Positions 1 through 62,117 of a stretch of DNA of 64,000 nt are shown piece by piece. The notes beneath the pieces are model-generated. The model ran no database searches and had not been told where the DNA came from. It saw only the letters and a list, made by a program, of their open reading frames with translations. Source of the DNA: Psammoneis japonica (lineage: Eukaryota); contig QPGO01000076.1 in assembly GCA_008632985.1 (NCBI GenBank), positions 248,001-312,000 of the forward strand, in the 5' to 3' direction. The position numbers and the translations under genes were made by a program. Every line of letters begins with the position of its first letter. The first letter of the stretch is position 1.

Positions 1-67
1 GCTGGAGCATCGACACAAAAACAAGAGACGTTTCCATCAACACTCACAGCTCCAATGCTTCCTGTCC

Positions 68-710
68 ATGTGCAGCCATCATTGCGTGCCCACACCTGCT
101 TGGAGACATGACATTGGAGAAACCTGTTTTCAAGATTGGGTGCCAAACAACTGCATTTCCTGTGGATGTGTGTCACTTGATGTTTTCAGTGTGGAGATTT
201 TGTGCAGAATTCCACAGGCAAATGTCGCGCGGAGTCCCACCCAGGGCTGGAATGCACGATCATTTGCACTGGATGGTGCAGCACAGCAAATTGCTTGTGC
301 TTGCTCTGAGTCCTTCATTGACACACACATTGTCTGTGACCACCCGGCAAAGAGGCATCCATCAAAGTGGGCATCCTGTTTCAGATGGGCTGATGTTGAG
401 AAGAAGAATTTTGAGTTCATTGCTGTGACAGCAGAGCTGCAGTCACTCCTGATGCAACAACGCAACACAATTGAGCATGCCACCCAAATTGGTGAAGCAC
501 AGAAGAAGATTCAGAATCTTGAGAACTGCGCAAAGCATCAGCCACCCAGCTTCTCTGTGAGGCTGGAAAAATTTGTTGAAGATGTGACTCAGCTGGAGAA
601 AGGGGAACATCAGAATTGAACAGCCCAGACTCAAGCAGATCTGTGGATTGTAAAAATGACAGCAGACAGGGATTCGAAATTCACAGTCTTGGGCAATTCT
701 GATTTTGTCA
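68..710 (+). pseudogene. Degenerate coding relic, possibly an XPG/FEN1/Exo1-like (PIN-fold) nuclease
   Basis: Translated segments IDTHIVCDHPAKRHPSKWAS and, after an in-frame stop, TAQTQADLWIVKM...VLGNSDF loosely resemble the XPG-N (FVFDG..K) and XPG-I (EAD...DSD) motifs. TpA- and CpG-depleted. The resemblance is weak. Confidence 0.25.
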
Positions 711-2109
711 TGATGTCAGTTCAAGCAGAAAATTGAGTGAAAACTTGCTGATGTCATGGCAAAAGACATCAAAATTGCCATGAGACTCAAGCAGCAGATT
801 TGTTTGTTCAGAATGCACACAGGTCAAAAACCCATCACGGATCTTCTTGACAAAATCCTCTGTCTGAAATTGGGGAGGTGCCCATCTCTTCAAACAAACA
901 AAGGACACATTCTTGATTGCCCAGTGCTCAGTGGGGTGCAACATCCAATTTGACAAAGGTCACCACCAGATGTAGAGATGCAAAAGTGACCAGTCAAATG
1001 TGCTGTCAACCCAGGTTGTGGCAGATGAAAAGCCAAGTGTGTGCTGTCAACCTGAGGCGTGGCCGATGATGAAAAGTTTGGGGTCGACAAGGCTCTTCAC
1101 AAGGGTTGTGTGGCTGTTGTCCATTCCGGCAATGAGAGAGGCACAAAATGCACCAAACTGTCTTGGTTCATTAAAAGAGGGTGCAAAAACCAACTTTGGG
1201 ACATTGATTTTCTCTGCAACATGTGGCGAGTGCTTGTGTTTCAAGCGAACTTCATGTTTGACATGTTTCAATGAACGTCGATGCTGCAATGCATTTTGCA
1301 GTGGCAACAACCGCAAATGGAATGTCACAATGATGCACCAAGAAACAGCGCAGAAATGCACAGTTACAAGCAGCACTGCAGTGTTTGCAACACAAGATGG
1401 CTCATGCCACTTGTGTTGACGCGGGTGAAGTGCATCTTCACTGCACGACAAAGCACGGTCGCAGACTCTACGACAAAATTTGCGCCAGAAAAATTGAGCC
1501 CCCCCTCCCCCCCCCCACCCCCAAAAATGAACCGTGAACAACTTCAATGGGCAATTTTTCACCTGGTGTGGGCAGAGCATTTTGACTGACTTGACTCAAG
1601 CACAGCAAGAGTCAACATGCCAAAGTGGCCTGGGTGTTAAAGTGTTGGAAGGAACACAAAACAGCATCAATGACCGCGGGTGGAGCCGGCAGTGGTGGCA
1701 GCAGAAAGGGCTCTGGCAGAAGAGTGGCCCACATCAAAGGACAAGGAGCTCCATTTGGGGCCAAGTGTGATGCCAAAAAAGAGCTGGAATGAAAGCAGAG
1801 TGCCCGGTCGGTCTTGGCCATTGTCGCGGAAGCACGCTCCAGACAAGAAAGCAAGCATCAGAAAACAAAAAACCGAAATCCATTTTGCCGCTGCCTTGCC
1901 ACAGCCCACACCAACACCGACCACAGCAGACCCACGTTCCCCAGCACCCACAAAGGTCAGCAGGGACAATTCAAACACTGCCAAACATTGTCAGAAAGAC
2001 AGTGCCATCAACATGTTGTCCAAAGGCAATGCTGCCAATGCATCATCAGAAAGAGGCTGTTTGTTCTAAGTCAGAACAGTGCCGACCAGATGCTCGAAGA
2101 ATGGACAAG

Positions 2110-2542
2110 TGCCCTGTGCATGTGCCAGGCGCTGAAAAAGAAGATGTGTTACGACTTTGTCGTTGTGAAAATTATGAGCTAGTTTAGAGTAGAGAAAATG
2201 GGATCGTGCGAATAGGGAATCTTGCCAAATCCCTATTCGTTCGCATTTGGATCGTATTAAATCGATCGTGCGTTCGCATTGTGGATCGTGCGAATCAAGC
2301 CATCACGCGCCATGCACGAGTGATGTCATCGTGTGGAATCACGCTACCATCGTGGGCCAGACGACGGGCTAGTGTGCTTCACACGGATGCTCTCTTAGCA
2401 TCCTTCTGGAATTGCCTAAGACCTAGAGCCACGCCCTCCTGTGGTCGTGCTTCCCAGGTTGCGTGTTGACAACACTGCGTTGCCACGCACAAGAGGCTCA
2501 TGCACGGTCTCGCCGTGGTGTCCAGCAGCGAGGCATGCTGCA
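2110..2542 (-). repeat. Gypsy 3' LTR (433 bp)
   Basis: Near-identical to 7482-7913 and adjacent to the PPT. Confidence 0.93.
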
Positions 2543-2581
2543 CACTCCCCCATGATCAGGGCCGTCAAGTGACAGAATGTC

Positions 2582-5500
2582 TCACTGGTGACAGGGTGCA
2601 ATCTGCCGTAGATTGTGCGTGTCTGTCAGCGCTCCGTTCTGGGTGCGCAACGTGCCATTGTCACATGCACGGACAACTCTGGCGGGTCCTGCACAGCTGT
2701 CAGAACCGCATTTAGAGGATTGTTCCTGTTTGACAAGTGCCAACTGCCCTGCGGTGCATTGACACTCCTTGCGTTTCTGATTTTCACGCTTGTTGTTCAA
2801 GTGGATGAGCTTCTGCTTTCTGGTTTCTGTGTGCTTCCACTTGGCACGATGGGCAATGGACAAAACCGCATCGCGTCCGAAGACCAATTGCGTGGGACTT
2901 GCACGCATGGTCGTGTGCACCGCAGCTCTGACAGCGAAGGCCACTGCGGAGAGGATGCCACTCCATGGGTCATCTTCGTCCAGTTCCACATCCTGCACTG
3001 AAAAGGAACGCACCATGTCACCAAGTGTCTGGTGTGCACGTTCCACTGTGGCATTTGCCTGTGGATTCCGTTTGCTCATGGGTTTCTTCAAAATCCCATG
3101 GTCATTTTTAATCATCTGGCTAAATTCTGCCATAAATTCTGTCCCACGGTCATAAACCACCTGGGTTGGCCACGGACATCTGCGTGGCCACGTTTGTTCC
3201 ACGACGTTTGCTGCGACGTCTGCGCGTTTCGCAGACACTTCTTTAATCTCGAACCACCCGGTTGCTGGGTCAATCATTGTGACTGCCCACAATTGCAAGG
3301 TGTCCTTTCCGCGTCTTTGAATTTTATATGGCCCTGTCACATCCATGCATGGGAGTTTCCCATGGAATTGTCTCTGCGACCTTTTCTGGTGGCTTCCCAC
3401 AACGCTGCGTTCGGCGTTTTGTCTTCTGGCACTTGACGCACGTAGAATGCACCGTAGACCTCATGCCAGGCCAATGGAAGTGCTGGGCAACAGACACTTC
3501 CGCACGTGTCTCACCTGGATGACACAGTGTCTCGTGGTGCCATTCAGTTGGCGGAACCTGCAATGACTGTGGTGCTGCGATTTTGTCCTTATGACAGATT
3601 AACTGTCGTGATGACCCTCCCCCACGATGCGCGCGAATGGAGCAGTCGGACGAGTCCTTGGCTCTTGAGAGTGGGTGCTTGTCCTTTTGTTGTGCTTTTT
3701 GAATGCGCTTGAAGCCAATGGGCAGAGACAGCTCATCTTGAGCATCTGCATTAAAGGCTTCATGCAAAGGACGACTCGATGGAGTGTCCCCCACATCTGG
3801 ATTGGCCTCGGAAGGCAAGCTGGGTGCTGGTCGAAGGCGACTGAGAGCGTCAGCGACTGGGTTGTGGGTGCCCTTAACACAGCGTAATTCGGGACCGCAT
3901 TCTTTGCATGTCAACCGCCAGCACATAACGCGCTCGGCATTGAATGCTTTGTGCGCAAGATTTTTATGATCAGCACATGTGATCATGCGATGACCAAGGA
4001 GAGTCGTTCGAAATTCTTTCAACGTCTCCACAATGGCGAGCAATTCTCTCTCCGTTGTTGTGCAATTTAATTGCGCGCTGTCAAGCTTTCTGCTGCAAAA
4101 GGCGACAGGTTTGTTGTCTTGGGACATGACTGCTCCCAATTGACATTTAGAGGCATCGGCATGTGTCTCAAAGGGTTTGTTGAAATCAGGATGTGACAAT
4201 GAAACATCATCCGATGTCGCCCGTTTGACGGTTTCGAACGCCTCGTCTTCAACGGACGTCCACTCCCACTTGACAGTCTCACTTGCAAGTCGTGTTGGCG
4301 GAGCCAAGACTTCAGAACGTCTGATCCACGTGTCGCAGCAGTGGTTCACCATGCCAACAAATGAACGCAGGTCGCGTTTGTTGGTTGGGGTCGCGATTCG
4401 CTCAATGGCATCGACTTCATTGGGTGTTGGTCGCACTCTGTCTCTGTTGACCAGACAACCCAAGTGTTCCAACTGGGTTTGACAGAAGTGAGATTTGGTT
4501 GCATTGACTTTTGGTCCTGCTTTCTAGACCCTCAATGAAACTTCTTCAAGTTTGTTGAGGTGATCTTCATGGGTGCCTTTCGTCACGACGAGAAGGTCAT
4601 CTAAGTGCGTTCGAACGACAGATCTTCAAACAAGCCTGACATGCATTCTTGGAAAATGTCTGGCGAATTGCATGGTCCCATGGGCAATGCCTGCATCTCA
4701 CACTTGCCCCACGGGAAGATGAGCGTGCAGAGCTTCTTGCTGTCAGTGTCCAATCGGATGTGATGACAGCCCATGTTTAAATCCAGCGATGTGGCCCACA
4801 TAAAGCCTTCGAGCTTGAGTGGCATGTCTTGGACATGAGGAATCGGACAAGGCAATCGCTTGATCCGTTCACTCAGCTCTCTGAAATCATCAATGAAGCG
4901 TGCCGTTAACACGGGATCCGCGGATGCACCAGGGGAATCTGCGAAATGCGGGATGAAAGGGGAAAGGGGCAAATGTGAATGGTGGAAAAGTGACATGCTA
5001 TTATTTTACCTAGAGGGAACCTTTAGTCAGCCAAACACGCTTATTGCCGATTTGACCCTCGTAGGTCCGTCTTTCGAGGTCGTTAAATTGTGAGAGCAGA
5101 CGCGGTCTCTAGAAATAATTTTATATATTTTATTAGACCATTAATATTATATAAATCTGAAAACGACACACATAAAAAAGTGAATTTTCAACTTTATATA
5201 ACCTTCATAGCCATATATATTATATAACGATTAATCCTCAGACGCGTCCGTCACAACATTTTGACACCCCCATAAGACGGACCTGTGATGGTCAGATGAG
5301 AAATGTGCGTGTTCGGCTCACTAAAGGGACCCTTAAGGCACAATGATAGCCCTCACTTTCCCACCATTCCCATTTGCCCTTTCCCTTTCATCCCGCAATT
5401 CCGGTGCACCATGGATCCCGTGTTAAATCTTTCTTCGGTATGATAAATGATGGAGCTGCCCATTGGGATCGGTTAACGCGTTTGAGAACACCGATACGTA

Positions 5501-6211
5501 CTAGGCGCTCTACTTCCTTACGTAGCGTAGCTTCGTACGCACGAGGTACTTTATACGGACGAGCCTGGTATGGTTCTACACCCTCCTTGAGTTGGATATG
5601 GTAGGGTTCTCCCTTCCATTCTCCTAATGTCCCATCAAATAAGGACTCATGGCGTTTCAATAGTGCCAAAAGGTCGTTTTGTTGAACTATAGAAATTCTA
5701 TTGCCCCTCGCGTTATGTCCTCGAGGCAGGCCGGCGCGTACTTAGCGTCTAAAATACGCGAAATCCGGTCGGTTTCCGAAGATAAGGCTTCTGGATCTTG
5801 AAGATAGAAGGAGGTTTCCACCGTAGCATCTACGTGCCTCATTGGTACTTCTCCATTGACTAATGGCCACTCTATCATCTGTTTAGAGAAGACAATATCA
5901 ATGCCTTGTGTCTCCAGAATGTCACGTCCAATAATCATATCGTACTTGCCCAACTTTCCGTTGTGTACGTGGACGGTATGCTTAAGTTCTGCAGTTTCGG
6001 ATAATTCTGGTAACCGAAATTTAACGGTACAGTCGTTAGACGTACTAAACGAGCCTGCTACCGTAGTCCAGTTTGTCTCAGCCGTTGAATGGCTTCGCAG
6101 ACGTTTACAGTATCGACTATCGAGTAGAGTACTGCTAGCGCCACTATCTAGTAGTGCCTTAATAGTTTGAGTCTTGCCCTTGCCATGTTTAGTATTCATA
6201 GCTATAAACAA
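2582..6211 (-). pseudogene. Gypsy pol (protease, RT, RNase H, integrase), frameshifted and interrupted by a MITE
   Basis: Protease ALLDSGASS. RT SQWAAPSFIIPKKD|LTARFIDDFREL, SLDLNMGCHHI, LPMG. RNase H HADASKCQLGAV and TTTERELLAIVE. Integrase HETLCHPG, MIDPATGWFE, YDRGTEF, NPQANATVERAH. Confidence 0.92.
4910..5422. mobile_element. piggyBac-like non-autonomous element (MITE), 513 bp, TTAA TSD
   Basis: TTAA at 4906-4909 and 5423-5426. Imperfect terminal inverted repeats of about 80-90 bp begin CACGGGATCC. AT-rich non-coding interior. Removing the element plus one TTAA restores the RT frame (PKKDLTARFIDDF). Confidence 0.9.
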
Positions 6212-6343
6212 GATTGGAGTAAGATGAGTCTTTTTAACTCGTTTACGGGATTGGCCTACAACACGTGTACGATGGTAATTCAGTTGTTCATTTATGCATT
6301 CATCTAATGTATTAAAACTACCTGTATCGTGTCGGCCCCCTTC

Positions 6344-7393
6344 TCAGGCGTCCGAATCTTCGGAATCACTTAAGTTGAGGTCGCGGAAGTGATTAAGCTC
6401 CTCCTCGCGGGCCTTACGCTTTTTCTGAGCGTTGGCAAAGTACTCCTCGACCTTCGATCCGATGAGAGTATTAATATCTTCCTCATTCCGAGGTTTTGTA
6501 TTAGGCTTGCCGCCTCCGTTATTGGAATGTCCAGTCTTGACACGTTTCACGTGGTGCTTGAGCTGACGGCAATCTTCCGTATCATGTCCACAGTTAGTCC
6601 CGTGTAGTATACACGACTTCTGGGTGTTCCGCTGGGTCGTGATCAACGACTCAGGATTGTCCATTCTACGTCCCCGATTACGTAGAATCTTAGTATGTTG
6701 GTCCTGGTTACCTTCGGTAAGCTCGACCTGCTCGATGCGCTCGCAGAACTGTACAAATTCGGCGATAGTATGCGCCAACGGGTCAAAATTCTGTAGCGTC
6801 ATGAACTTCTGCCATGCGTTCGGCACACCGTACTCGAACATGTCGCATAGTTCGTCATTGGGTGATGGTGCCGGTGCTTCTCCATCCTCCGTCACGGGTG
6901 GAAACTGAGAGACACAGCCGTTAATTTCAACAGCCCTCGCAACGTGGTCACGAGCAGAAACCTCTGCGGGCTTGCGCATGAAGCGCCGCAGATGACGCTT
7001 CTGCAGCAGTGCCGCCCCATTTGGGAAGACACTTTCCTTTAGCTTCGCGACGCATGCTGCGTGCGCAGCGTTGGTTTAGGACGCCTGCTTGTCAGCGGCA
7101 TTGTCAAATGACGTCAGAGCATCGCCCTGCAGCAAGTCACGCACAAGGGCAAATTTCGCTGGCCCGGTCGTGATGTTTTGTCCTTCGTGCGCGTGATCCA
7201 CGTTGCGTGGAAAGATTGGAAGTGTCTCGCATGTAGCCGCAGAAAGGCACGGGATGCCCATCTCGTGCGTTGGACTGTCCGAATCAGCAGGGTTGTTGCG
7301 CAGCTTGAACGTCTGGTGCTCGCCCTGCTGCAGCTCTTTCTTCTCCGGCCGTGCGAACGGAATTGGCGGCTCAACCCGCTTCTTCATGGTCAT
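6344..7393 (-). pseudogene. Gypsy gag with one in-frame TAA (7076-7078)
   Basis: ORFs 7076..7600 and 6344..6979 share a frame. Contains a CILHGTNCGHDTEDC zinc-knuckle-like motif and lies between the 5' LTR and protease. Confidence 0.8.
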
Positions 7394-7481
7394 TTTGAGA
7401 TTTGTCGGTCCCACCAACATTTCGTAGTTTCGTTTCTGTAGATTTCGTTGCCTCGCACAATGTGCGGGAGCAACATTGCTG

Positions 7482-7913
7482 TGCCCCATGCATGCACCAG
7501 GCGCTGAAAAAGAAGATGTGTTGCGACTTTGTCGTTGTGAAAATTGTGAGCTAGTTTGGAGTGGAGAAAATGGGATCGTGCGAATGGGGAATCTTGCCAA
7601 ATCCCCATTCGTTCACATTTGGATCGCACCAAATCGATCGTGCGTTCGCATTGTGGATCGTGCGAATCAAGCCATCATGCGCCATGCACGAGTGATGTCA
7701 TCGTGTGGAATCACGCCACCATCGTGGGCCAGACGACGGGCCAGTGTGCTTCACACGGATGCTCTCTTAGCATCCTTCTGGAATTGCCTGAGACCCAGAG
7801 CCACGCCCTCCTGTGGTCGTGCTTCCCAGGTGCGTGTTAACAACACTGCGTTGCCACGCACAAGAGGCTCATGCACGGTCTCGCCGTGGTGTCCAGTGGC
7901 GAGGCATGCTGCA
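7482..7913 (-). repeat. Gypsy 5' LTR (432 bp)
   Basis: Near-identical to 2110-2542 (transitions plus one 1-nt indel) and upstream of gag. Confidence 0.93.
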
Positions 7914-8899
7914 CAAGCCCAGCCACACCCACTTGGGAGACACAAAAACAAACATTGCAGAAAACCAAACATGTGTCCATCTCCGAAGACACTTTGCTTG
8001 AAGAGAGTGTGAGTGAAATTCCTGGCATGAAACCATCCAGGAAGTCCAACACGGACCCCAACAATGAAAGGAAATGATGGTCGCTGAAAAATGCCATCAT
8101 GTGCAGAATTGTGCAGGAATTGTGTGCTGAAGCTGCAGCATCGAAGTGTGAGAAGAGCAAACACTCAGACCTGGAAATGCTGGCCACTTGAAAGACTCAT
8201 GAAGACCAACTTTGAAGTGCCATGCAGTGTTGATCATGACATTGAATTGCACTGCAAAGAAAACTTGGAGGAAGAACATTGGCAAGAAAAACAAAGGATG
8301 AAACTTGAAATGGTCTTGACTCGAAATTCTGACCAAATGTGCAGAATCGCACATGGAATTTGCACTGAAATGGCTGACTTGGAAATTGCTGAATCATGCA
8401 GAAATTAAAGCAGAAAACATGCTGACACATGGAAAGAAAATGCAAAGAGATGCGACACCATGGCGGTGCCACTCCCCCGAATGCAGACACAACAGAGCAT
8501 CCCCTCTGACACCTTTTGGTTTCTCTGTCATTGGCACAACTGCCCAACGTCCCAAAGTGCCCGAAGAGGTTGGCATGCCACCACACTCTCACATGGGACA
8601 ATCCTGCGGGCGCTTGCGCAGAATTGTGAGCATCAGAAAACAGTCATGGCAGAGCAGCAAGTGGCCAGAGCAAGGGAAAGGCAAGAGGCTTTAGAGCAAG
8701 AATTGATTGACAAGCAAAAAAGAGATGAGGAAAAACAAACTCAGCATGCCTTGTAAAATGTCAAGGCAGCAGCTGCAAAAGAGCATTTGTGTGAGGGGAC
8801 CAAAATCAGAGGGAGGGCACAGTCAGGCAAAACAGGATGTTTCTAGAACAAGCAAGATGCAGAGAGAATTGCCAATCAAGGCAAAAAGCAAAAGCACAT

Positions 8900-9260
8900 T
8901 CAAGCTTCAACAAAAGCAGTTTTAACAGTGGCACAGTCACAGCTCCTCGCAGCCAACCCTGCAACAACAGTGGTGACAACAACAGAAGTCCAAATGGCAC
9001 CAGCAGTCACAATGATGGCAGTTGCAACAATCACAGTTTCCACAATGGTGGTTGCCACAGTGGCAGTTGCAATGGCAGTGGCTGCAGTGGCAGCAGTTGC
9101 AGTGCAGCCTGAATGGCAGCACAGCTGCAATGGTGCCATCAGCAAACAACAGCAGTCACAACAGCAGTGGTTGAAATTGCAGCAGTGTTGCGACAGCAGC
9201 AATTTCAATGGCAGCAGTCAAAATGGCAGTGGTGGCAGTCATGATGCCAAGAGCAGTCAA
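8900..9260 (+). repeat. Low-complexity Gly/Ser/Asn-rich coding relic
   Basis: Reads GSCNNHSFHNGGCHSGSCNGSGCSGSSC, consistent with a former GSY/GGY repeat after Tyr->Cys/His conversion. Confidence 0.4.

Positions 9261-46827: not shown

Positions 46828-46830
<3 letters not shown>

Positions 46831-46864
<34 letters not shown>
46831..46864. repeat. (AG)n microsatellite
   Basis: About 17 AG units at the edge of a TpA-depleted block. Confidence 0.9.
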
Positions 46865-46866
<2 letters not shown>

Positions 46867-53617: not shown

Positions 53618-56146
53618 TTATTGAACCCTTCTTTCTCGGTAGTATCCATGACAGTCGCTTGGATCCTGGCCGACATCAAGATTCAGACGCGGCAGTTCCT
53701 TTTCTTGCGTAACAATATCATGAACAAGGACAGTGTGCCTCTTCATGGTCATAACATCATTGTCGAACACGAGACTTCGGGCATCCATATTTGAGTAGCT
53801 CCAACAGCCGCCCATGATTTCGGTTCCATCGGCGTGTGAAATTGAGAAACGAGGAGCGATTTCGTCCACTGAAACATTGTAGACGAAGAAACCGTCAAAG
53901 GGTTCCTCTTTGTCATATCTTGATCCCCACTGTGTAACAGGAATGATCAGGACCTTGTTAATATCGAGGTAACGAAACGCCTGATGGTCATACTCGGCTG
54001 AGCTCGAAGCATGATCGTCGACGAAGTTCTGCAGTCTACGCGGATTTGCAAGGTCCGCTACATCGAAAAGAGAGATCTGCAGGCCACCACGCCACCCTTC
54101 ATCAGGATCAACATACTGACCAACCCCAAGAATAACCGATCCATCTATTGGGTGGAGGTAACTACTGTAGCCAGGAATCTTTAGCTCGCCAACCATTGAC
54201 GGATTGAATGGATCGCTCATTTCAATCGTGTAGAAAGGATCTACTTGCCGGAACGTTACGACAAAGCCACGAAGATCGATAAACCGGACAGAGTAAATGC
54301 GTTCTGTGACACCGAGGCCGTCTACCAAACCCACTGTAGTCAAGTTGGAGCTACTACCTTCAGTCGGGAGAGACAAGACCGTGACCTGGCTCGATGATGT
54401 GTCACGAGGACGCCAGAAAAGAGGTCCACCTTGCAACGCATTATCCTGCTCCCATTCTGTCTCTTTTGTGGTAGCAACGCGCAAATAGTCGATGCCATCA
54501 ACTTGGTAAACGTCCAATGAGAACTGATTCAAGACATAACCAGGAACGCTTCCAACGGCCACGGCGCTGGTGGTCGCATTAAAGAACTCAAACACAAATA
54601 AAAACGTTTCCTCGTTCCAGACGCTTCGCCTCACTTCATTCCATCCTTGAGATGACATTATGAGAAAGTTCTTGCTGGCATAAATGGTGCTGAGCCGGTT
54701 TGACATAAACAAACTTTTGGTGGATGTCGGAAAGCTAGCCTCGTTAACATCATTCACATCGAAACTTGTTGTAAAGGTCACATGTCCAAGGACCTGGTGG
54801 TCTGCAAACCATAGCTCGTGCATGTCAGTCTCGTTGAAATCCGAGGTCTGCAAAAGAGCAAGTCGGACAATGCCGTCACATGTGGAACTTTCCGTAGCGT
54901 CCAAAATTTCATCTCGCAGCTTGCGAGCAAAGAACTCCAGTTTTTCTTCCACCATAGCTTTGGCCGCATTTCGGAACGCATACTCGGGAAGGTCTCGAGG
55001 ATATAGGGAGAAATCATATCGATCGACAAAGCTCAAGAATGATTTGTAACTGTCAATGTCTCTGGATGTGATGATGTGAATGAACTGGCCAATTGCTCGA
55101 CCATTCAAGTACATCCCTGGGATATCTCTTCTTCCCATGAGTGACAACGGTGATCCATCCGTTGGAATATTTGAAACGTCGTAGACATATACTCTTGTAC
55201 TCTGCGGTGACAAAATGGGGTGCAAATCATCTGCGGGGTCTGAATATCCTGGCTCATAGAAGGAGCACTCTCCTGATGCGATCACGACGAGTTGCTCATC
55301 ATGGAGCAATAGGCCTGCAATATTTGAATAGCAGTGAAACGAGTCGCCTCTAATTGAATTCTCGTCTTCTTCTATTACAGTTCCAATGTTCTCCATTTCT
55401 TCCAAGCTGACAATTGGGATCCTTGTGCGGCTTTTGAGTTCAAGTGTCTTCACCTCCCACACTACAACCTCGTTGCCATATTTAGCAAAGACATGGTTCC
55501 CATCTGACTTGACAGAGTCAGGTTCATCCACGCCCTCGACCTGATTGTTCGAAAGGAAACTATCTTCACCACCGCCAGATTCACCACCGCCAAATGTAGG
55601 TGTCCCTGGTGATGGCATTGCATTTTCCGTTGGCGCACCAGTTTCACATCCCCAGCATCCTCCGCCTAACCCGTAGTGGTACCACCTATCGTGATAGTAC
55701 GCTTGAGCACCGGTTTCGATCGCAAAATTAGCCATGTACTTGAGAGCGAGACGTAAATCGTTCTCAAACTCGCTGCAGTTCTTGTATGGCTCCAAGATCT
55801 CTGGACCAAAACCGTTCAGTTCTACTGCAAAGGAACCGCCGCCGGCCGAATCGCCACCTTCGTCCTTGGTAAGCCCAAAGCCGAGTCCAAACGCCAAACC
55901 CACAGCTGCGACTAGAACGATCAAAACACCAACAACGGACTTGGGTCTCTGCATAATTCTCTGTAGAAACGATTTCGGCTGAAGGGTGTTGTCGAGTTCT
56001 TCGAGATTACTTCTCGCCGATTCCAAGATTTCTTTGTCGTCTTTCGAGATAGTGCTCTGCTTCATTTCCTCTTTAGCAACTCCTACATCGATGGCAACAT
56101 TGCCAGCTTCGGCGTCACTTTCGTTCTCTGTTACTTCCATCATCAT
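53618..56146 (-). CDS. Membrane-anchored beta-propeller domain protein (Beta_propel/PF09826-like), 842 aa, copy 1
   Basis: N-terminal TM helix. NNQVEGVDEPDSVKSDG, VLNQFSLD, LRVATT, ERIYSVRF, VTFRQVDPFY, GELKIPGYSSYLHP. Confidence 0.88.
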   Translation of the reverse strand: MMMEVTENESDAEAGNVAIDVGVAKEEMKQSTISKDDKEILESARSNLEELDNTLQPKSFLQRIMQRPKSVVGVLIVLVAAVGLAFGLGFGLTKDEGGDSAGGGSFAVELNGFGPEILEPYKNCSEFENDLRLALKYMANFAIETGAQAYYHDRWYHYGLGGGCWGCETGAPTENAMPSPGTPTFGGGESGGGEDSFLSNNQVEGVDEPDSVKSDGNHVFAKYGNEVVVWEVKTLELKSRTRIPIVSLEEMENIGTVIEEDENSIRGDSFHCYSNIAGLLLHDEQLVVIASGECSFYEPGYSDPADDLHPILSPQSTRVYVYDVSNIPTDGSPLSLMGRRDIPGMYLNGRAIGQFIHIITSRDIDSYKSFLSFVDRYDFSLYPRDLPEYAFRNAAKAMVEEKLEFFARKLRDEILDATESSTCDGIVRLALLQTSDFNETDMHELWFADHQVLGHVTFTTSFDVNDVNEASFPTSTKSLFMSNRLSTIYASKNFLIMSSQGWNEVRRSVWNEETFLFVFEFFNATTSAVAVGSVPGYVLNQFSLDVYQVDGIDYLRVATTKETEWEQDNALQGGPLFWRPRDTSSSQVTVLSLPTEGSSSNLTTVGLVDGLGVTERIYSVRFIDLRGFVVTFRQVDPFYTIEMSDPFNPSMVGELKIPGYSSYLHPIDGSVILGVGQYVDPDEGWRGGLQISLFDVADLANPRRLQNFVDDHASSSAEYDHQAFRYLDINKVLIIPVTQWGSRYDKEEPFDGFFVYNVSVDEIAPRFSISHADGTEIMGGCWSYSNMDARSLVFDNDVMTMKRHTVLVHDIVTQEKELPRLNLDVGQDPSDCHGYYRERRVQ

Positions 56147-56743
56147 GTAAACGTTGACCTTTTGGAGATTGTACGATTGATTGTACGATTGAATGCGTGT
56201 TCGCAGTTCGCAAACTGCGATGTTTATTCCTCACAGATGTTGTCTTTTCGCGACGATGCAGTCGTGGATGTGTGATTCCCAAATTTCTGCGGTGGGGCAC
56301 CACAGTCGCAGCCAGCAGGGACACAAACTTCATGCCTGAAAGAAAATGCCCTGCTCCTGAATGCAGTTCATGAGATTTCGATCGTCATGGCTGTCCACAA
56401 ATGGCTTTGTAGCAATTGTTGTTTGGGTGTCGGCTGCTCGTTGCACGCGACAGTTCAGTGTGCGCCATGACGTGCGCACGTTCCAGTCACAGCGCCAGCG
56501 ATGCGCCATCTCAGTGACGCAGCCGGTCTCCACAATGCCAAAATAGTCAGAGAGTGAAGCAAGTGGTTTGAAATGCATCCCAAACATTTAACAGCAAAAC
56601 ATGAACTTTTTGAGACACCAGCAGGTGCCCGCTCCTGGTTGTTGGGATGCTCCTCATGGAGCACTGCAACTTGCTGCTGTGTCAGACAGGGATTTGTGCT
56701 CTTGTCGCAGCGCTGCTGTTCTCCAAATGAGAAAGGTCCTGCC

Positions 56744-57003
56744 GGCCTGTTCCAGCTCCAGGTGCTCCGCACGGGTTCGATTCCCATCATTTGGAAATTT
56801 GTGCATTCAGCGCAATTAACTTTTTCCAAATCCGTTTTTTGCCAAATCGAAGGGCAAGCGCACACTTTGCATGCATTTTCGGGTGTGCACTCACCTTTCG
56901 ATTTTCGAAACGATCAAAATTGAAGGAGCCAATTGCGCTGAACTGCGCAGAAAATCGGCCTCTCGTGTGATGAAAAGCAGAGCACCTGGAGCTGGAACAG
57001 GCC
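56744..57003. mobile_element. Putative 260-bp MITE with perfect 24-bp TIRs and 4-bp TSD TGCC
   Basis: GGCCTGTTCCAGCTCCAGGTGCTC at 56744-56767 and its reverse complement at 56980-57003. TGCC at 56740-56743 and 57004-57007. Confidence 0.75.
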
Positions 57004-59929
57004 TGCCTGCAAAATGAGCCAAGCATTGCATCATTGTCTTTGCCAGCAGCGAAGGCAAGTGTGGTTCCAGGAGCACACACTTGGTTGTGGCATGGCAGAA
57101 GATTTCCTTCTCGGGCCTTTTCTGCACGGTTCACCTCTGCACTGCCTCTCCTGCCCTTTCTTGACTTTTGCTTGGCGGCCCCTGCACTTTTGCCAGGGCT
57201 CCATTCTGTCCACAACTGCAAACCTGAGCTCTTCTTGAGGAGAGCTGCTCTTTGCCAACCCTGTGCTCTTGGAAGCTGCCTCTGGAGCCCAACCTGTGGG
57301 AAGGTCCTCCAGCACGTGCTTGGCTCTTCTTGTTTTCTTTGTCGTTGGCAAGACACGAAATGTGCCCTCTGTCAAACACTTTGTGCAAAAGCCACTGCAG
57401 ATGAAAGTCTTTGTTTTGGGTGACTTCAGCTGCAGCATCTGTCACAACAAGAGAGTGTGCTTGCACTGGCGGGGTTTGTCCAACCCACCACAGACAACAA
57501 AAAGCAGTTTTTCAGCTTTGCAGTGGACTTGAGGGGAGTGCGCCACTTGGCACAACTGCTCTCCCAAAGTGCAGCTCTTTGTCTTTGTGCAGAACAACAA
57601 ATGGCAAAGCACTGGACCTTTGAGAGGAGGAGCTTCACCTGCATCTTTCTCTGGCCCAACAACAGCCATGTTGTGATGCCCTCCAAACCCACTGCCAGCA
57701 GGGGCACAAATCAGAGGCATCCAAAGGAGCACAAATGTGAGGAAGCTCAAGCCCAGAAAGGTCCCACAGCAATGGCACCCAGGAGTGCCCAGCAAATTTG
57801 GAAAAGGAAGGTTGGTCTAGAAACTGACCAAGAGGCAGAGGGGGGAGATGACATTTCCAGAGCAGCTCCACCTGCAAAATGTGTTTGTCCCAGAAGTGTC
57901 TGTGCAACAAAGCCAGAAATGTGAAAATGCTGCTTTGCCTTTCATGTGCAGTGAAGTGCACAACACAAGGAGCTGAGTGACCTCCTGCTGCCAGCAGCAC
58001 TTGGGCTGATTTCCAAAGCACCTGCCCTCCAACACCTTTGCCAGAACATGCCAATTGGCAGGTTGACCACAGTCTTGACAGCACTGTTGTTTGCAAGCCA
58101 GCTCCAACATGGCAAAAGCAACATGGCTTTTGTCATCACTTCTTGCCAATGGACACTTTGCAAAGCAAAGCCAGCTGCTCTTTAATCTCTGTCATTGCAT
58201 GGAAAGACAGCAGCAGCAGCACAAGTGGCTGTTTGACACTGGTGCAGCAGGCCAGCAGTTGAGTGCTGGTGTGGGCCAAAAGGAAGTGCTGGACTGGGGG
58301 ACAAGGAGTTTCTGCTTTTGATGCTTGTCAGATGTGGCCCACCCACACAAACCAATGTTGAGAATTGGCCCAGAGCAAAAAGCCTTGAGTCAGGACTGGG
58401 TTGAAAAAGGACTTGCTGAACCCCCTCCCCCAACATTTGTGGCTCATTGAATGCCTTGCCAAACCTTTGTGTTTTTTTTTGCTGTTGGAGATGCTTTTCT
58501 GGGTCCATCTTTTCTTTGTGATCTTTGTTTGTTTTGCCTTGTTGTCAGCCCAAAAGAAAACCACAAACTTGTTTTGTCCTTGTGTCTCTCAAAATGTTGT
58601 CAAGTGCCCATGAGGAAAACATGTTTCACTTCAAAGCAGCCACCCATTTTCCCATGAGAGTGCCCACCCTCTGTCCCTGCAAAACCTTCAAATTAAAAGC
58701 ACTTGCGTTGTGAATTGTTTTTTTGTTGTTTGCATCAATTTCAAATGATGCTGACAGGAGAGACGACACCATGACACCCGAGCCCTGACATGCTCACCAG
58801 ACACAATCTGTGGATGGAAAAATGGAGGTCAGGTGACCACAATGAGACTCACAAATGTGGCCCTGAGGCATGACCCGACACCTTTCAGCAACGCAGGGAT
58901 GCAGGAACCCTGGGCTGTTGTGCTGTGCAATGCTGCCACTCTCACAATGCAGAGAGCTGCTGTGCAACAAGATTCAGAATGGGGCCAAAAAGAAATGAGC
59001 AAGTTAAAAGAGTTGGCACTCACCGCAAAGGAAAAACAAAACCTCCAAGCTCTGGTTGTCTTTGGAACAAGACAACCATTGAGTCACCCTCAAGAATGAT
59101 CCACACAAGTGAGCAGACATGAAACTCACATGATTCATTGCCAAAAAGTGCAGAATGCATTGTGAAAACACAGTGCAGATGGGTCAACACAGCCAACAGA
59201 AACTGCAACATGGACTTGCGGTTGGGTTGTCTGCCACTGCCACCACCAATTCTGGTGCCTGTGAGTTTTTGGCAGCAGCTGCAGCTCTCTTTCTTAAAGC
59301 ATTGTTGCTCCAACCCACCTTGTTTGTTGCCAAAAAGTGTGTGAAGCACATTGTGAGAGTGCAGCATGGATGAACCAACATGGCCAGTGGGAATGGCAAC
59401 ATGGGCTTGCCGGTGCATCTGACGCAAATGACTTCAGAGCAATGTGGGTGCCAGTGCATGGACATTGAGTGCCCAGCTCCACCCCCACAACTAAAAAAAA
59501 AGAGAAATGCTTGAGAAAGCACACGAGGAAGCAAGCGGCACTTGCTGGAACAGCTGCAGGAACAAGCACCACATGCATGTGTGCCACACTTCACAAGAAG
59601 GTGTTGCACAAATGACAAGCCACAATGGCTGAGTTTGCCCCACACCTCCTGTGCTGCAGCGCAAATGCTTCATTGACGACACATTTGGAGTGCAGACTGG
59701 AGACAGCAGAGAGACCTGGGAAGCCTTTAAAAATGAGCTTGACAACTCAGGCAACCTCCAGCAGGTCACGTCCCCACTCTCTCTGTCTCTGCAATCTTTC
59801 TGGATCTGGACATGACAAAAATTGAAGAAGATGGGTGCACTGATCTTTTTGCATGTGCCTTGTTTGAAGACTGTCATTTGTGGTAACTTGTGATGATTCT
59901 GGATGCAAGACTCTGACATGCATGTCTGT

Positions 59930-60162
59930 GCTGCCCTGCAAAAGAACTTCAGAGTAAAAAATTTGCACAGAAGCAGCTCCAGGGCCCCAGCAGAAATGCT
60001 CAAAAAGTCTGGAATGTCAAGAAACTGCACAGAATTCAGCATGGAATCAGTGCCAGGGATGTCAAAAAATCATGAAATTCCAGACTTTTTTGGCATTTCC
60101 ATTTGGGACCTGGTGCTGCTTCTGTGCAAATTTGTTGTTCTGGAGTTCTTTTGTGAGGCAGC
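59930..60162. repeat. Degenerate long inverted repeat (fold-back), arms about 90 bp
   Basis: aaagaacttcaga...aaatttgcacagaagcagc...aaaaagtctggaat pairs with attccagacttttt...gctgcttctgtgcaaattt...tctggagttcttt. Confidence 0.7.
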
Positions 60163-62117
60163 ATGCCAACACTGCAGAAAAGTTTGCCAATGGACAGCTC
60201 ATTGCAATGTGCCAGCTTGGCATTCTGAATTCTGGGTGGCTCTTTGACAGATTTGTGACAGCACACTTGCAAGCATGAAGCTCAAGAGATGGCCCAATCA
60301 AAACCCATCTTGACCAACCAGAAGGACAGCAGGTCTCATCACATGTTCAGCTGCTGTCATCAGCTGATGGGGCAAAGTCTTTTGCTGCCATGGCAGGTTG
60401 TTGACATGCAGATTTGCAACAACGTGCAGAATGCACATGAGCCACAACAGCGCACACTCTTGCTTTTCAATGTTTGGGGAGAGGGTGTGCTGTCATGAAG
60501 TGTGCAGAAAATTGCACATGCAAAAAATGCTGAAAATGCTGTGGACCACCAACGGGCTGTGCAAATCTGGGAAGCATGAAAAATTTAAGGTGGGGGTGGA
60601 AGAGTGCGTGCGTGAGGTGGGGTGCACACATGCAAGGACACACAAACATGAGTGGTGAGTGGGGAGGACAAAGTTAAAACAATGCTCAGCTGACGACCAT
60701 CAAAAGAGGAAAAAGCAAACCATGTCTCAAAAAAAGGTGCAAACACCAATTGAGTTGAACATTGTGTGCATTTGATTGAAGCTTGTGTCAGAAAAGCCAA
60801 TGAGACACAAGAAGAAATGCAGAAAACAAGTGCATTTTGTTGAGCTGCTGCTGGCATTTTTCAAATTTGACTTGTTGGCAATTTTAACAGCATGTGTGCA
60901 AACATTTACAAAGGAAAGTGGAGACCCCTTTGTCAGTCTGAAACTCTTTTTTGACCTGGCACTTTGTTGTGACTGCCTTGCCAGTCAAAGAGCACAACAG
61001 CTGTCCTGAGTGCAGAAAGTGGAAGTTCATTTCAATGCAAGAAATGTGCTGGCTTTGGCAGCAAGTGCAAGTGTGTTGTTGCCTGGGAAAGTGTGCTGGC
61101 TGTGTTGTCAAAAGCAAGCATTTGCAGAGAAACACTGTTCATTGTTCATGGGCACATCCTCTTTGTTGTGTTTCACAGCTTTGTGCTCACCCTGCCACAG
61201 AATCCTCCTTGTGGCTTGCACTGCAAGCACCAGAGTTCCAGGGTTGGCAAGCACCACATTTGGCAGAGGGTCTCTTCTGCATCATCAGCAACAGACTTTT
61301 TCATGCCAGCAAAGCACGGGCTTGTTGGCTTGAGCCCCTGCTTGTGTTTGATTTGGCTGAAGTCCTGGACATGCAGGAGCAACTCCAGCAACCATCGTGG
61401 ATGTGCTTTGAAAGCTGTTGCAACAGCAAATGTAAAAAATTGTGAGCATCATCATCAGAACAAAGATTGTGAGACATCATTTTTCATCCTCAAAGACCGA
61501 CCCCACACAGAATTGCGAGCTGAGAATGAACTTCAACATCCATGACATGTGACACCAGATGGCTGCACCCCACCCACCGGCACTCCTGGAGAGCAGGTGG
61601 AAATCCTCCATCTAATTTACAACGTGCCGTGCATGCAGGAGAAGACTGGATCACGGCAACAATGTCGCAGCAATCATGACAGGATCGCACTTTGAGTCTT
61701 GTGACGGCTGGTGAGCACGACTGGGGCAAGTTGTGACAAACTTAACACAAAGCACTGAAGACTGGTGTGAATGGGGAACTCCTGTCAAAGGTCATCATGG
61801 TCAGATGTGACAGCCCAAGTGCAGCTGCGGTGGCGTGGATCAAAGCTATGTGAAGCGCGACGACGGACAACGGTCCACGTCAAACTGTAAATCTCGCCAT
61901 GATCGTTGGGAGACTTTAGATTAAAATTTCGAGAACGATCCTGCAAAGCGCCGGCTATCGACTCAGTCGTAGTGGGGAGCTCACAAAGAAGGAACAAATC
62001 CATCAATATAGGGAATTATAGACAGTATGAAAGATTGGTGAATCGGCCCGCTCTCACTTCTCAGTTCATCCAACAATAAATATGCGAATGCAAAGCTTGC
62101 AGTGGACTTTCTTCCCG

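What the first reader, a model, noticed from the sequence alone, without database searches (positions are those of the whole stretch)
1..61840. Repeat-targeted TpA->TpG/CpA (A-to-G) hypermutation: a mirror-image RIP-like genome defence
Seen in sequence: blocks at about 1-4990, 6860-14170, 19880-25580, 33520-35500, 36700-37790, 38900-46860, 52200-53280 and 56330-61840 are almost free of TA and rich in TG/CA. Adjacent host genes use TA normally, and the transitions are abrupt. Direction is fixed by conserved motifs in which Tyr became Cys or His: Gypsy DLNMGCHHI (GYYHI), HADASKCQLG, AFCSRKL, NCTTTERE, ECGPELRCVKG; Copia HQCACTGKG, DIGNACL, LHGL, TCGSEF. The 1092-aa Copia ORF keeps only 4 Tyr by my count. 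TA->TG and TA->CA both occur, so both strands are hit. Established knowledge: fungal RIP and 5mC decay are C->T and create TpA, so this runs the opposite way. Inference: an active A:T->G:C mutator aimed at silenced or repeated DNA. Candidates are a TadA-like DNA adenine deaminase, deamination of a modified adenine, or Pol eta-type error-prone patch repair (known WA/TA A->G bias). I know of no description of such a system in diatoms but could not search the literature.
Basis: partly seen in the sequence, partly recalled or inferred. Interest (0 to 1): 0.96.

Follow-up and report, generated by a model that had tools for sequence, protein, structure and literature searches.

The report
TpA-erasing hypermutation of transposon DNA
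In this probably diatom genome, transposon-derived DNA has had nearly every TA step rewritten to TG or CA after insertion, which kills the elements without creating stop codons and runs opposite to every transposon-mutating system described so far.

Summary
Nine segments (36.5 kb, 57% of the window) have TA observed/expected 0.08, against 0.64 elsewhere, with TG and CA raised to about 1.7.

The direction is TA to TG/CA:
- A Gypsy ORF keeps 0 of 13 conserved Tyr (7 Cys, 5 His, 1 Phe).
- Two Copia ORFs keep 7 of 25.
- A Copia with an intact 5-bp target duplication has 9 of the 14 TA of its 5' LTR changed to TG/CA in its 3' LTR, so the change happened in the chromosome after insertion.

The process is strand-symmetric and acts site by site. 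It is strictly TpA-specific in a polarised comparison of related metagenome copies (A>G 16/58 after T, 4/343 elsewhere). It comes in sharp-edged tracts and runs far faster than background. A 2-kb tandem host-gene duplicate is untouched.

Contigs of a public run reproduce TA-free sequence at single-copy depth. Independent metagenome contigs and database proteins show the same Tyr to Cys/His signature, so it is not an assembly artefact.

RNA editing, APOBEC-type cDNA editing and Pol eta WA mutagenesis fit poorly. The enzyme is unknown. I favour adenine deamination at TpA in silenced chromatin, which is inferred. Ten literature searches found no description.

The parts
3..2148 (.). TA-free, CpG-poor old repeat block (TA o/e 0.05, CG 0.36). 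It is the left flank of the Gypsy.
   Evidence: no Pfam hit
2110..7915 (-). Ty3/Gypsy LTR retrotransposon, a mosaic of mutated and unmutated tracts. LTRs are 2110-2544 and 7482-7915. Order on the minus strand is protease, RT, RNase H, integrase. No target-site duplication was found (ACAAG vs AGCCC).
2430..4997 (-). Mutated tract of the Gypsy covering integrase, RNase H and the RT C-terminal part. TA o/e 0.17, CG 0.81. It keeps 0 of 13 conserved Tyr.
4999..6849 (-). Unmutated tract of the same Gypsy (most of the foldback insert, RT N-terminal part, protease, part of gag). TA o/e 1.07, CG 1.22.
4907..5420 (.). 514-bp foldback (MITE-like) insert in the Gypsy RT. It has terminal inverted repeats flanked by TTAA and sits at the mutated/unmutated border.
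   Evidence: an X1 contig joins 4890 to 5425
6856..14165 (.). TA-free segment: Gypsy gag part and 5' LTR (to 7915), then an old unrecognisable repeat block. TA o/e 0.09.
   Evidence: an X1 contig of depth 60 covers 12826-20000
19878..25577 (.). TA-free, CpG-poor block (TA 0.05, CG 0.22). It holds a degenerate Copia RT/RNase H relic at 22923-23769 (+) and an Acetyltransf_2 fragment at 20134-20712.
33520..36192 (.). TA-free block (TA 0.12). It overlaps the 5' two thirds of an Exo_endo_phos ORF (35109-36437, +).
36623..37787 (.). Old TA-free block into which the Copia inserted (the HMM segment runs to 37803). The last 5 bp (37783-37787, AATTG) are the left target-site duplication.
37788..44882 (+). 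Ty1/Copia LTR retrotransposon. LTRs are 37788-38063 and 44607-44882 (TGACAG...CTGTCA). TSD is AATTG at 37783-37787 and 44883-44887. ORFs are 38885-42235 and 42599-44656.
37809..38539 (+). Unmutated part of the Copia (5' LTR and leader). TA o/e 1.00, CG 1.17.
38544..44882 (+). Mutated tract of the Copia (TA o/e about 0.12, CpG near normal). It keeps 7 of 25 conserved Tyr. 9 of the 14 TA of the 5' LTR are TG/CA in the 3' LTR.
44888..46812 (.). Old TA-free, CpG-poor block to the right of the Copia.
52213..53280 (.). TA-free block with no TA at all (o/e 0.00, CG 0.29), between the chitin synthase and Beta_propel genes.
56232..61842 (.). TA-free, CpG-poor block (TA 0.06, CG 0.25) between the two Beta_propel gene copies.
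53493..55498 (-). Control: host Beta_propel gene copy 1, tandem duplicate of 61993-63998 (96.5% identical). Not hypermutated.
61993..63998 (-). Control: host Beta_propel gene copy 2.

Best explanation
SHOWN.
The TA-free blocks are transposon-derived DNA. They comprise a Gypsy, a Copia, a Copia relic, an APE-type fragment and repeats too decayed to name. In them, almost every 5'-TA-3' has been changed by one transition to TG or CA.
- The change happens in the chromosome after integration.
- Each TpA is hit independently on one strand or the other, and a site that has changed once is no longer a target.
- Other A/T contexts are spared.
- The changes come in tracts with sharp edges that differ between copies.
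- The rate is roughly two orders of magnitude above background and several times above CpG decay in the same DNA.
- The process can never create a new in-frame stop (TAA becomes TGA or CAA, TAG becomes TGG or CAG). It destroys Tyr codons, ATA, NTA and T|A codon junctions, so elements die with open frames.

INFERRED.
An enzyme recruited to silenced, cytosine-methylated transposon chromatin recognises the palindromic TpA step in duplex DNA. It deaminates the adenine to hypoxanthine, which replicates as G.
- Action on the bottom strand gives TA>CA on the top strand.
- Because TpA is palindromic, an attack on the thymine cannot be told apart from this by sequence.
- Targeting is by chromatin or transposon identity, not by sensing duplication.

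The confidence of 0.4 is for the whole statement including adenine deamination. For the shown part alone I put it at about 0.9.
For: Direction.
- Gypsy ORF 3327-4523(-), against the 60 best of 549 homologues: 0 of 13 conserved-Tyr columns kept (7 Cys, 5 His, 1 Phe), while 173 of 232 other conserved columns are kept.
- At least 34 of its 72 departures from consensus are the predicted codon changes. Examples: 6 of 6 Thr>Ala are t|GCN, 4 of 4 Leu>Pro are CCA, 2 of 2 Lys>Glu are t|GAR.
- Copia ORFs: 18 Tyr columns give 6 Tyr, 7 Cys, 3 His, 1 Trp, 1 Phe. Another 7 columns give 1 Tyr, 3 Cys, 1 His, 2 Phe. Other conserved columns kept: 296/329 and 136/163.

After insertion.
- The Copia has matching AATTG target duplications.
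- Its LTRs differ at 14 events: 9 TA-type (the TA always in the 5' LTR), 1 TG-vs-CA, 3 CpG-type, 1 other transition, 0 transversions.
- Gypsy LTRs: 13 TA-type of 19 events, 12 with the TA in one LTR.
- Control host duplicate: 11 TA-type of 71 mismatches (Fisher p 5e-7).

Specificity, in metagenome copy L038 polarised by three little-mutated relatives.
- A>G: 16/58 after T, against 4/343 after A, C or G.
- T>C: 25/64 before A, against 3/193 elsewhere.
- Double changes TA>CG: 2 observed against 8.6 expected (p 5e-4).

Strand symmetry and site-wise action.
- TG:CA is 3771:3840.
- Runs tests show no strand clustering.

Tracts.
- Sharp edges.
- Different copies of one metagenome family carry tracts at different places.

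Link to methylation (indirect).
- CpG o/e is 0.76-0.81 in young mutated tracts, against 1.17-1.40 in unmutated parts of the same elements.
- 4 of 5 CpG-type LTR changes lie in the mutated LTR.

Not an artefact.
- An X1 contig of 8677 nt at depth 60.2 covers 12826-20000 with 3 differences. It joins TA-free DNA to host genes.
- Another X1 contig covers 1-771 with no base difference and one gap.
- The same Tyr>Cys/His signature occurs in metagenome loci L038 (0/107 Tyr kept), L019, L034, L039 and L072.
- It also occurs in database proteins P0112, P0180, P0200 and P0268 (0 Tyr kept).
Against: - No enzyme was identified, because no genome is held for this window.
- From recall, no natural duplex-DNA adenine deaminase with TpA specificity is known.
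- Sequence cannot tell whether A or T is the attacked base.
- The mosaic could partly be assembly chimerism or gene conversion from intact copies. The Gypsy has no target duplication, and a high-copy foldback sits exactly at its mutated/unmutated border.
- The unmutated 5' part of the Copia could be a converted, restored tract and not a spared one.
- Flanking preference is inconsistent. Surviving TA in the window are poor in ATA/TAT and rich in TTA/TAA. In L038, a 5' A is not preferentially lost, although a 5' T is again the most resistant.
- The CpG link is mixed in metagenome loci. L034 is reversed, and L019 and L037 show no difference.
- The library type of run X1 is not on record and only contigs were served. 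The run may be the window's own source, so it is not strictly independent.
Confidence: 0.4

Rival explanations
1. Thymine route. A TET/JBP-like dioxygenase or other thymine-modifying enzyme marks T in TpA in silenced DNA, for example as 5-hydroxymethyl- or 5-formyluracil or a J-like base. The modified base mispairs with G, or is repaired with error, giving T>C on either strand.
For: TpA is palindromic, so all the sequence evidence fits T>C at TpA as well as A>G. From recall only: thymine-modifying enzymes exist in protists, base J sits at T-before-A in kinetoplastid telomere repeats, and 5-formyluracil causes A:T>G:C changes.
Against: From recall: organisms with massive 5hmU (dinoflagellates) do not show such TA loss, so 5hmU itself is weakly mutagenic. 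No such enzyme could be sought because no genome is held.
Confidence: 0.2
2. Error-prone patch repair by a Pol eta-type polymerase (WA hotspot) in heterochromatin.
For: Both strands would be hit.
Against: AA is not hit: 1/150 A>G after A, against 16/58 after T in L038. AA/TT o/e are not lowered in the blocks (1.22 each). LTR events include 0 transversions among 37 mismatched columns. Near-saturation of one dinucleotide, with mutual exclusion of the two bases, suggests site recognition and not polymerase error.
Confidence: 0.05
3. The changes arise rarely, then spread among copies by GC-biased repair of heteroduplexes (T:G or A:C mismatches corrected towards G:C) during ectopic recombination between the hundreds of copies.
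For: The Gypsy family has about 100-480 copy equivalents by summed contig depth. Mosaic tracts with sharp edges look like conversion tracts.
Against: Biased conversion is not dinucleotide-specific, yet A>G is confined to TpA. Neighbouring sites take TG or CA independently, and different copies differ site by site. Low-copy and single-copy-depth blocks such as 12826-14165 are TA-free as well. An origin for the TG/CA alleles is still needed.
Confidence: 0.05
4. A-to-I editing of retrotransposon RNA (ADAR- or ADAT/TadA-like, which prefer U before the edited A), fixed by reverse transcription and reinsertion. Alternatively, APOBEC-like editing of cDNA before integration.
For: The 5' U/T preference of known A-to-I editors matches TpA (recalled).
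Against: Only the sense RNA is copied, so only A>G on the sense strand would result. Here Tyr>Cys (A>G) and Tyr>His (T>C) on the sense strand are 17:9 across the three ORFs, and TG:CA is 1:1. The two LTRs of one Copia insertion with an intact TSD differ at 9 TA sites, so the change followed integration. Blocks with no recognisable retroelement are affected too.
Confidence: 0.03
5. Sequencing or base-calling artefact of modified DNA, left in repeats that polishing could not reach.
For: The blocks are repeats. The window's sequencing technology and the library type of run X1 are unknown, and X1 may be the window's own data.
Against: k-mer contigs of X1 reproduce TA-free sequence at single-copy depth, contiguous with host genes. 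The same signature occurs in contigs of other public metagenome assemblies and in proteins from several sources. TA gives TG or CA but almost never CG, which strand-mixed miscalls would produce. LTRs are only partly converted.
Confidence: 0.03
6. Native composition or selection: these families are naturally TA-free.
For: None beyond the composition itself.
Against: Conserved Tyr residues are replaced by Cys/His. Unmutated parts of the same elements have TA o/e 1.0. Most of the 77 related loci have TA o/e 0.6-1.04 (the range is 0.22-1.04, and 11 hold TA-low tracts) and keep Tyr.
Confidence: 0.01

Closest known systems
Repeat-induced point mutation (RIP) of Neurospora and other fungi (RID/DIM-2 dependent; recalled, with passages of PMC9998398 for the RID-DNMT4 relation)
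   Same: An in-chromosome, dinucleotide-specific, transition-only hypermutation. It hits both strands, comes in tracts, can approach saturation and kills transposons.
   Different: The direction is opposite. RIP is C:G>T:A at CpA and makes TpA, AT-rich DNA and stop codons. Here the change is A:T>G:C at TpA, which erases TpA, raises G+C and cannot make stops. RIP senses duplication, whereas here a 2-kb tandem gene duplicate is untouched. A cytosine-methyltransferase-like enzyme cannot explain changes at A:T pairs.
Decay of methylated CpG by 5-methylcytosine deamination
   Same: A palindromic pyrimidine-purine step in silenced transposon DNA, each strand independently, with the same products TG and CA. 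It co-occurs in the same blocks (CG o/e 0.22-0.52 in old blocks).
   Different: A different base pair is attacked. The TpA change is far faster: in the Copia 3' LTR, 9 of 14 TA changed while the CpG-type differences between the two LTRs number 3 (2 of them in the 3' LTR) and 1 other substitution occurred.
APOBEC3 hypermutation of retroviruses and LTR retrotransposons (PMC4866542, listing and abstract only)
   Same: Deaminase-type hypermutation that inactivates retroelements and has a dinucleotide context.
   Different: APOBEC acts on minus-strand cDNA before integration and gives strand-specific G>A. Here the change follows integration, is strand-symmetric and is at A:T pairs.
A-to-I editing by ADAR, and by fungal or bacterial TadA/ADAT-type enzymes; laboratory adenine base editors derived from TadA (recalled)
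   Same: The chemistry reads as A>G, with a preference for U/T before the edited A. Base editors show that a CDA-fold enzyme can deaminate adenine in DNA.
   Different: The natural enzymes act on RNA. No natural TpA-specific duplex-DNA activity is known to me. Membership cannot be tested without the genome.
Pol eta WA-motif mutagenesis in somatic hypermutation (recalled)
   Same: TA>TG is its strongest hotspot.
   Different: It also hits AA and gives transversions. Neither is seen here.

Membership tests
Fungal RIP | C:G>T:A transitions, mostly at CpA, which create TpA | tested here: not met
   The direction is TA>TG/CA: conserved Tyr become Cys/His and the LTRs agree. TA o/e is 0.08.
Fungal RIP | Triggered by sequence duplication as such (linked duplicates of a few hundred bp or more) | tested here: not met
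   The 2006-bp tandem duplicate of host genes (96.5% identical, 8.5 kb apart) has 11 TA-type of 71 mismatches and 28 transversions. Caveat: selection could have removed mutated alleles.
Fungal RIP | Dependence on a RID/DIM-2-type cytosine methyltransferase and premeiotic timing | not testable with these tools
   No genome is held. Diatom DNMT4 is related to RID and its function is unknown (PMC9998398, passages).
Methylated-CpG decay | CpG depletion with a TG/CA excess in silenced DNA | tested here: met
   CG o/e is 0.50 pooled and 0.22-0.52 in old blocks. There are 5 CpG-type LTR differences. This is a second signature in the same DNA. It cannot explain the TA loss or the Tyr>Cys/His changes.
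APOBEC-type cDNA editing | Strand-specific change acquired before integration | tested here: not met
   TG:CA is 3771:3840. The LTRs of one TSD-flanked insertion differ at 9 TA sites.
ADAR/ADAT-type RNA hyperediting fixed by retrotransposition | A>G on the transcribed (sense) strand only | tested here: not met
   Both Tyr>Cys and Tyr>His occur on the sense strand: 7:5 in the Gypsy, 10:4 in the Copia. Outcomes at neighbouring sites are independent.
Pol eta WA mutagenesis | A>G at both TA and AA, with accompanying transversions | tested here: not met
   AA 1/150 against TA 16/58. There are 0 transversions among 37 LTR mismatches.
Ty3/Gypsy LTR retrotransposon (element 2110-7915) | LTRs, and the order protease, RT, RNase H, integrase | tested here: met
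   Pfam hits RVP/gag-asp_proteas, RVT_1, RT_RNaseH_2, Integrase_H2C2 and rve, in that order on the minus strand. The element is collinear with P0291. The LTR pair is 94.7% identical. No TSD was found.
Ty1/Copia LTR retrotransposon (element 37788-44882) | LTRs with a 5-bp TSD and an RVT_2-type RT | tested here: met
   RVT_2 at E 5.8e-26. It is collinear with the 1881-aa P0122 over residues 1-1880. The TSD is AATTG on both sides and the LTR termini are TGACAG...CTGTCA.

The most novel reading that the evidence does not exclude
Diatoms, at least a benthic or mat-dwelling group of them, possess a natural duplex-DNA base editor. It is an enzyme system recruited to methylated transposon chromatin that converts A:T to G:C specifically at TpA. 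It irreversibly disables transposons while never creating stop codons. It would be the chemical mirror image of fungal RIP and the first natural counterpart of laboratory adenine base editors.
Probability: 0.35. Interest if true: 0.95.

Novelty: new variant of a known kind. Interest (0 to 1): 0.88.

Why it matters
- **Mechanism.** Known transposon-directed hypermutation (RIP, APOBEC, CpG decay) all works by cytosine deamination and drives DNA towards A+T. A TpA-specific A:T>G:C process in chromosomal DNA would need a different enzymology, either adenine deamination or thymine modification. It could point to a natural DNA adenine editor.
- **Annotation.** The process removes TAA and TAG (7.4 against 36.1 per kb) and doubles the density of ORFs of 120 aa or more (2.63 against 1.24 per kb). 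Dead transposons therefore look like intact genes.
- **Dating.** It inflates LTR divergence. The observed divergence is 5.3%, but only 1 of 14 and 1 of 19 difference events are neither TA- nor CpG-type. LTR-based insertion dates in such genomes are far too old.
- **Composition.** It shifts G+C content and dinucleotide composition of more than half of this window.
- **Breadth.** The same signature in unrelated metagenome contigs suggests the process is widespread in an ecologically major algal group.

Tried and rejected
- **Whole genome.** None is held, so there was no genome-wide profile and no search for deaminase, TET/JBP, DNMT4 or Y-family polymerase genes.
- **Host identity.**
  - A homologue search with the whole chitin synthase ORF found nothing at E<=1e-20.
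  - With the catalytic region it found 1 unnamed protein.
  - The Atlas gave only 'chitin synthase', mostly fungal.
  - The only taxon label is a Fistulifera solaris (diatom) protein, 61-62% identical to the Copia RT ORF. 'Diatom' therefore rests on a transposon relative.
- **Expression.** No RNA holder is listed among the runs.
- **Raw reads.** Only Logan contigs were served and the library is not on record. Read-level allele fractions and a PCR versus PCR-free comparison were not possible.
- **Variants among Gypsy copies.** Only 40 of 237 variable places were shown. They mix CpG-type and TA-type differences and were not decisive.
- **Strand-processivity.** Runs tests were not significant.
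- **Extended sequence motif around TpA.** It is inconsistent between the window and L038.
- **Gypsy LTR pair as proof of in-situ change.** I set this aside because no TSD was found and a foldback lies at the tract border. The Copia carries that argument.
- **Earlier notes of this scan.** Nothing by place, sequence or the first word query. Notes under 'diatom retrotransposon' do not bear on this finding.
- **Literature.** Ten full-text searches were run. Their terms combined diatom, transposable elements, hypermutation/hypermutated, A-to-G, T-to-C, TpA, TpG, RIP-like, 'TA to TG' and 6mA. None returned a description of TA>TG/CA transposon hypermutation. The library lacks most subscription journals, and no supplements were opened.

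Full report
**1.
In 500-bp windows TA o/e falls to 0.00-0.2 and TG/CA rise to 1.5-2.3 in the stated blocks. A two-state segmentation gives nine TA-free segments totalling 36,526 bp. They are 3-2148, 2430-4997, 6856-14165, 19878-25577, 33520-36192, 36623-37803, 38544-46812, 52213-53280 and 56232-61842.

| Dinucleotide o/e | TA-free segments | Rest of window |
|---|---|---|
| TA | 0.08 (186 TA) | 0.64 |
| TG | 1.71 | 1.16 |
| CA | 1.63 | 1.14 |
| CG | 0.50 | 0.96 |
| GC | 1.20 | 1.01 |
| AT | 0.86 | 0.98 |

The shifts in GC and AT follow from TAC>TGC, GTA>GCA and ATA/TAT changes.

**2. What the blocks are.**
Pfam and tblastn identify four kinds of transposon sequence.
- A Ty3/Gypsy element on the minus strand (2110-7915, LTRs 2110-2544 and 7482-7915).
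- A Ty1/Copia element (37788-44882, LTRs 37788-38063 and 44607-44882, TSD AATTG on both sides).
- A degenerate Copia relic (22923-23769).
- An Exo_endo_phos ORF (35109-36437).

The remaining blocks give no family hit. They are also CpG-poor (0.22-0.36), as expected for older, doubly decayed repeats.

Host genes between the blocks have TA o/e 0.56-0.61. These are EF-hand, RING, ThrE/EF-hand, chitin synthase and two Beta_propel genes.

A Copia relative that is 61-62% identical is a named Fistulifera solaris protein. This is my only support for 'diatom'.

**3. The direction is TA to TG/CA.**
- The Gypsy ORF 3327-4523(-) was aligned with the 60 best of 549 homologues. It keeps 0 of 13 conserved Tyr (7 Cys, 5 His, 1 Phe) but 173 of 232 other conserved columns.
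- The other losses are the predicted ones:
  - Ile kept 6/18, changed to Val, Thr and Met.
  - Thr>Ala 6 times, all preceded by T.
  - Leu>Pro 4 times, all CCA.
  - Lys>Glu 2 times, both preceded by T.
- The Copia ORFs keep 7 of 25 conserved Tyr and have 10 Cys and 4 His. Other conserved columns are kept at 296/329 and 136/163.
- Unmutated parts of the same elements have TA o/e 1.0-1.07.
- Most of the 77 related metagenome loci have TA o/e 0.6-1.04 (the range is 0.22-1.04) and keep Tyr.

The families are therefore not natively TA-free.

**4. The change happened in the chromosome, after insertion.**
- The two Copia LTRs, bounded by identical AATTG duplications, differ at 14 events. Nine are TA in the 5' LTR against TG (4) or CA (5) in the 3' LTR. 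The others are 1 TG-vs-CA, 3 CpG-type and 1 other transition, with no transversion.
- Nine of the 14 TA of the 5' LTR are thus lost in the 3' LTR, while one non-TA, non-CpG change occurred in about 280 bp.
- The Gypsy LTRs show 13 TA-type of 19 events. The Gypsy lacks a TSD, so I do not rest the argument on it.
- The control pair of host genes (2006 bp, 96.5% identical) shows 11 TA-type of 71 mismatches, 24 other transitions and 28 transversions (Fisher p 5e-7).

Duplication as such is therefore not the trigger, unless selection hides it.

**5. Anatomy of the process.**
- It is strand-symmetric: TG:CA is 3771:3840 overall and 0.74-1.24 per block.
- Neighbouring sites choose TG or CA independently (runs tests).
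- A family of metagenome copies 77-91% identical to each other allowed a polarised spectrum. The ancestral state was taken where three little-mutated copies agree.

| Change in copy L038 | Context | Sites changed |
|---|---|---|
| A>G | after T | 16/58 |
| A>G | after A | 1/150 |
| A>G | after C | 2/104 |
| A>G | after G | 1/89 |
| T>C | before A | 25/64 |
| T>C | before C | 1/69 |
| T>C | before G | 2/64 |
| T>C | before T | 0/60 |

- The odds ratios for the TpA context are 32 and 41.
- Of 69 ancestral TA sites in L038, 20 stayed TA, 25 became CA, 20 became TG and only 2 became CG, against 8.6 expected (p 5e-4). A changed site is therefore no longer a target.
- Surviving TA in the window are enriched for TTA/TAA and depleted for ATA/TAT. 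In L038 a 5' T is also the most resistant, but a 5' A is not favoured.
- Tracts have sharp edges (4998, 6850, 38540) and sit at different places in different copies.
- Young mutated tracts have CpG o/e 0.76-0.81, against 1.17-1.40 in unmutated parts of the same elements.
- The process cannot create in-frame stops. TAA+TAG fall to 7.4 per kb (36.1 elsewhere), and ORFs of 120 aa or more double in density.

**6. The sequence is real.**
- Run X1 holds 0.88 of the sampled words of 14001-24000.
- One of its contigs (8677 nt, depth 60.2, 3 differences) runs from TA-free DNA at 12826 through the host genes to 20000. Another covers 1-771 with no base difference and one gap.
- The library type is not on record, and the run may be the window's own source.
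- Independent support comes from elsewhere.
  - Of the 77 loci fetched, 76 had enough aligned Tyr columns to score. L038, L019, L034, L039 and L072 keep 0-17% of Tyr with many Cys/His, and L061, L037, L046, L042 and L041 are partly affected. Typical loci keep 65-90% and have 0-5 Cys.
  - Database proteins of both superfamilies (P0112, P0180, P0200, P0268) keep no Tyr.

**7. Mechanism.**
- The shown features exclude RNA editing plus retrotransposition and cDNA editing. Both predict strand asymmetry and pre-integration change.
- They argue against Pol eta (AA spared, no transversions) and against biased gene conversion as the origin (no dinucleotide logic).
- A 6mA intermediate is unlikely. Eukaryotic 6mA is reported at ApT on active genes, is absent from Phaeodactylum and is weakly mutagenic (bioRxiv 10.1101/2024.10.28.620566, passages).
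- I therefore favour an enzyme acting on duplex TpA in silenced chromatin. It would most likely deaminate adenine. Modification of the thymine is the main rival, and sequence cannot separate the two.
- The tie to cytosine methylation is indirect.

**8. Comparison and novelty.**
- The process works like RIP: in-place, context-specific, transition-only killing of transposons.
- It fails RIP's defining features of direction and duplication sensing.
- It resembles CpG decay in symmetry and products, but attacks the other base pair and is much faster.
- Ten full-text searches found no description.
- Diatom DNMT4, related to RID, has no known function (PMC9998398, passages), but a cytosine methyltransferase cannot account for changes at A:T pairs.

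**9. Caveats.**
- No genome is held, so no candidate genes were sought.
- Only contigs were available, not reads.
- The Gypsy mosaic may be a chimera or a recombinant. A TTAA-flanked foldback (4907-5420) lies exactly at its tract border.
- Unmutated tracts could be conversion-restored rather than spared.
- 'Defence' is an interpretation of an inactivating, transposon-confined process.

Noticed in passing
window 4907-5420: A 514-bp foldback (MITE-like) element with terminal inverted repeats flanked by TTAA on both sides, a piggyBac-type target by recall. It interrupts the Gypsy RT at residue 266 of relative P0291. It is not TA-depleted and sits exactly where the Gypsy switches from mutated to unmutated. 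An X1 contig joins 4890 to 5425 without it.
   Followed up: partly
window 17988-18078, and run X2: Run X2, labelled 'DNA?', behaves like RNA. One contig skips a 91-nt GT..AG intron in the EF-hand gene. X2 also covers the unmutated Gypsy part 6287-6712 at depth 161, so unmutated copies of this family may be transcribed.
   Followed up: partly
window 53200-55498 and 61789-63998: Tandem duplication, 8.5 kb apart, of a Beta_propel (PF09826) gene. The genes are 96.5% identical and the flank next to the TA-free blocks is about 80% identical.
   Followed up: partly
window 20134-20712 (+): A fragment matching arylamine N-acetyltransferase (Acetyltransf_2, E 7.8e-8) lies inside a TA-free, CpG-poor block. 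It may be a captured or dead host gene that was hypermutated along with the repeat.
   Followed up: no
all TA-free segments: Long open frames occur in all six frames (96 ORFs of 120 aa or more, 2.63 per kb against 1.24 per kb) because TAA and TAG are erased. Gene finders will over-call here.
   Followed up: yes
window 37788-38063 vs 44607-44882, and 2110-2544 vs 7482-7915: LTR divergence of 5.3% is almost wholly TA- and CpG-type. Only 1 of 14 and 1 of 19 events are of other kinds. LTR-based insertion ages would be greatly overestimated in this genome.
   Followed up: yes
window 2110-7915: The Gypsy family is very abundant in run X1. Summed contig depth is 5,000-29,000 against about 60 for single-copy DNA. 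This copy has no recognisable target-site duplication (ACAAG vs AGCCC). X1 contigs join 1741/1824 to about 8631-8664, so other copies of the surrounding old repeat lack a 6.8-6.9-kb stretch that includes it.
   Followed up: partly
window 48116-51748 (-): The chitin synthase ORF (1211 aa) has only one relative at E<=1e-10 (47% identity) within the searched length range of a 5.8-billion-protein collection. Its first 560 residues match no family.
   Followed up: no
loci L033, L034, L036-L039, L041, L042, L046, L050, L051, L061, L072: A Gypsy family in metagenome contigs, 71.9-91% identical in nucleotides among themselves. Its copies range from little mutated to Tyr-free, with TA-low tracts at different positions. 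It is a ready data set for a fuller mutation spectrum.
   Followed up: partly
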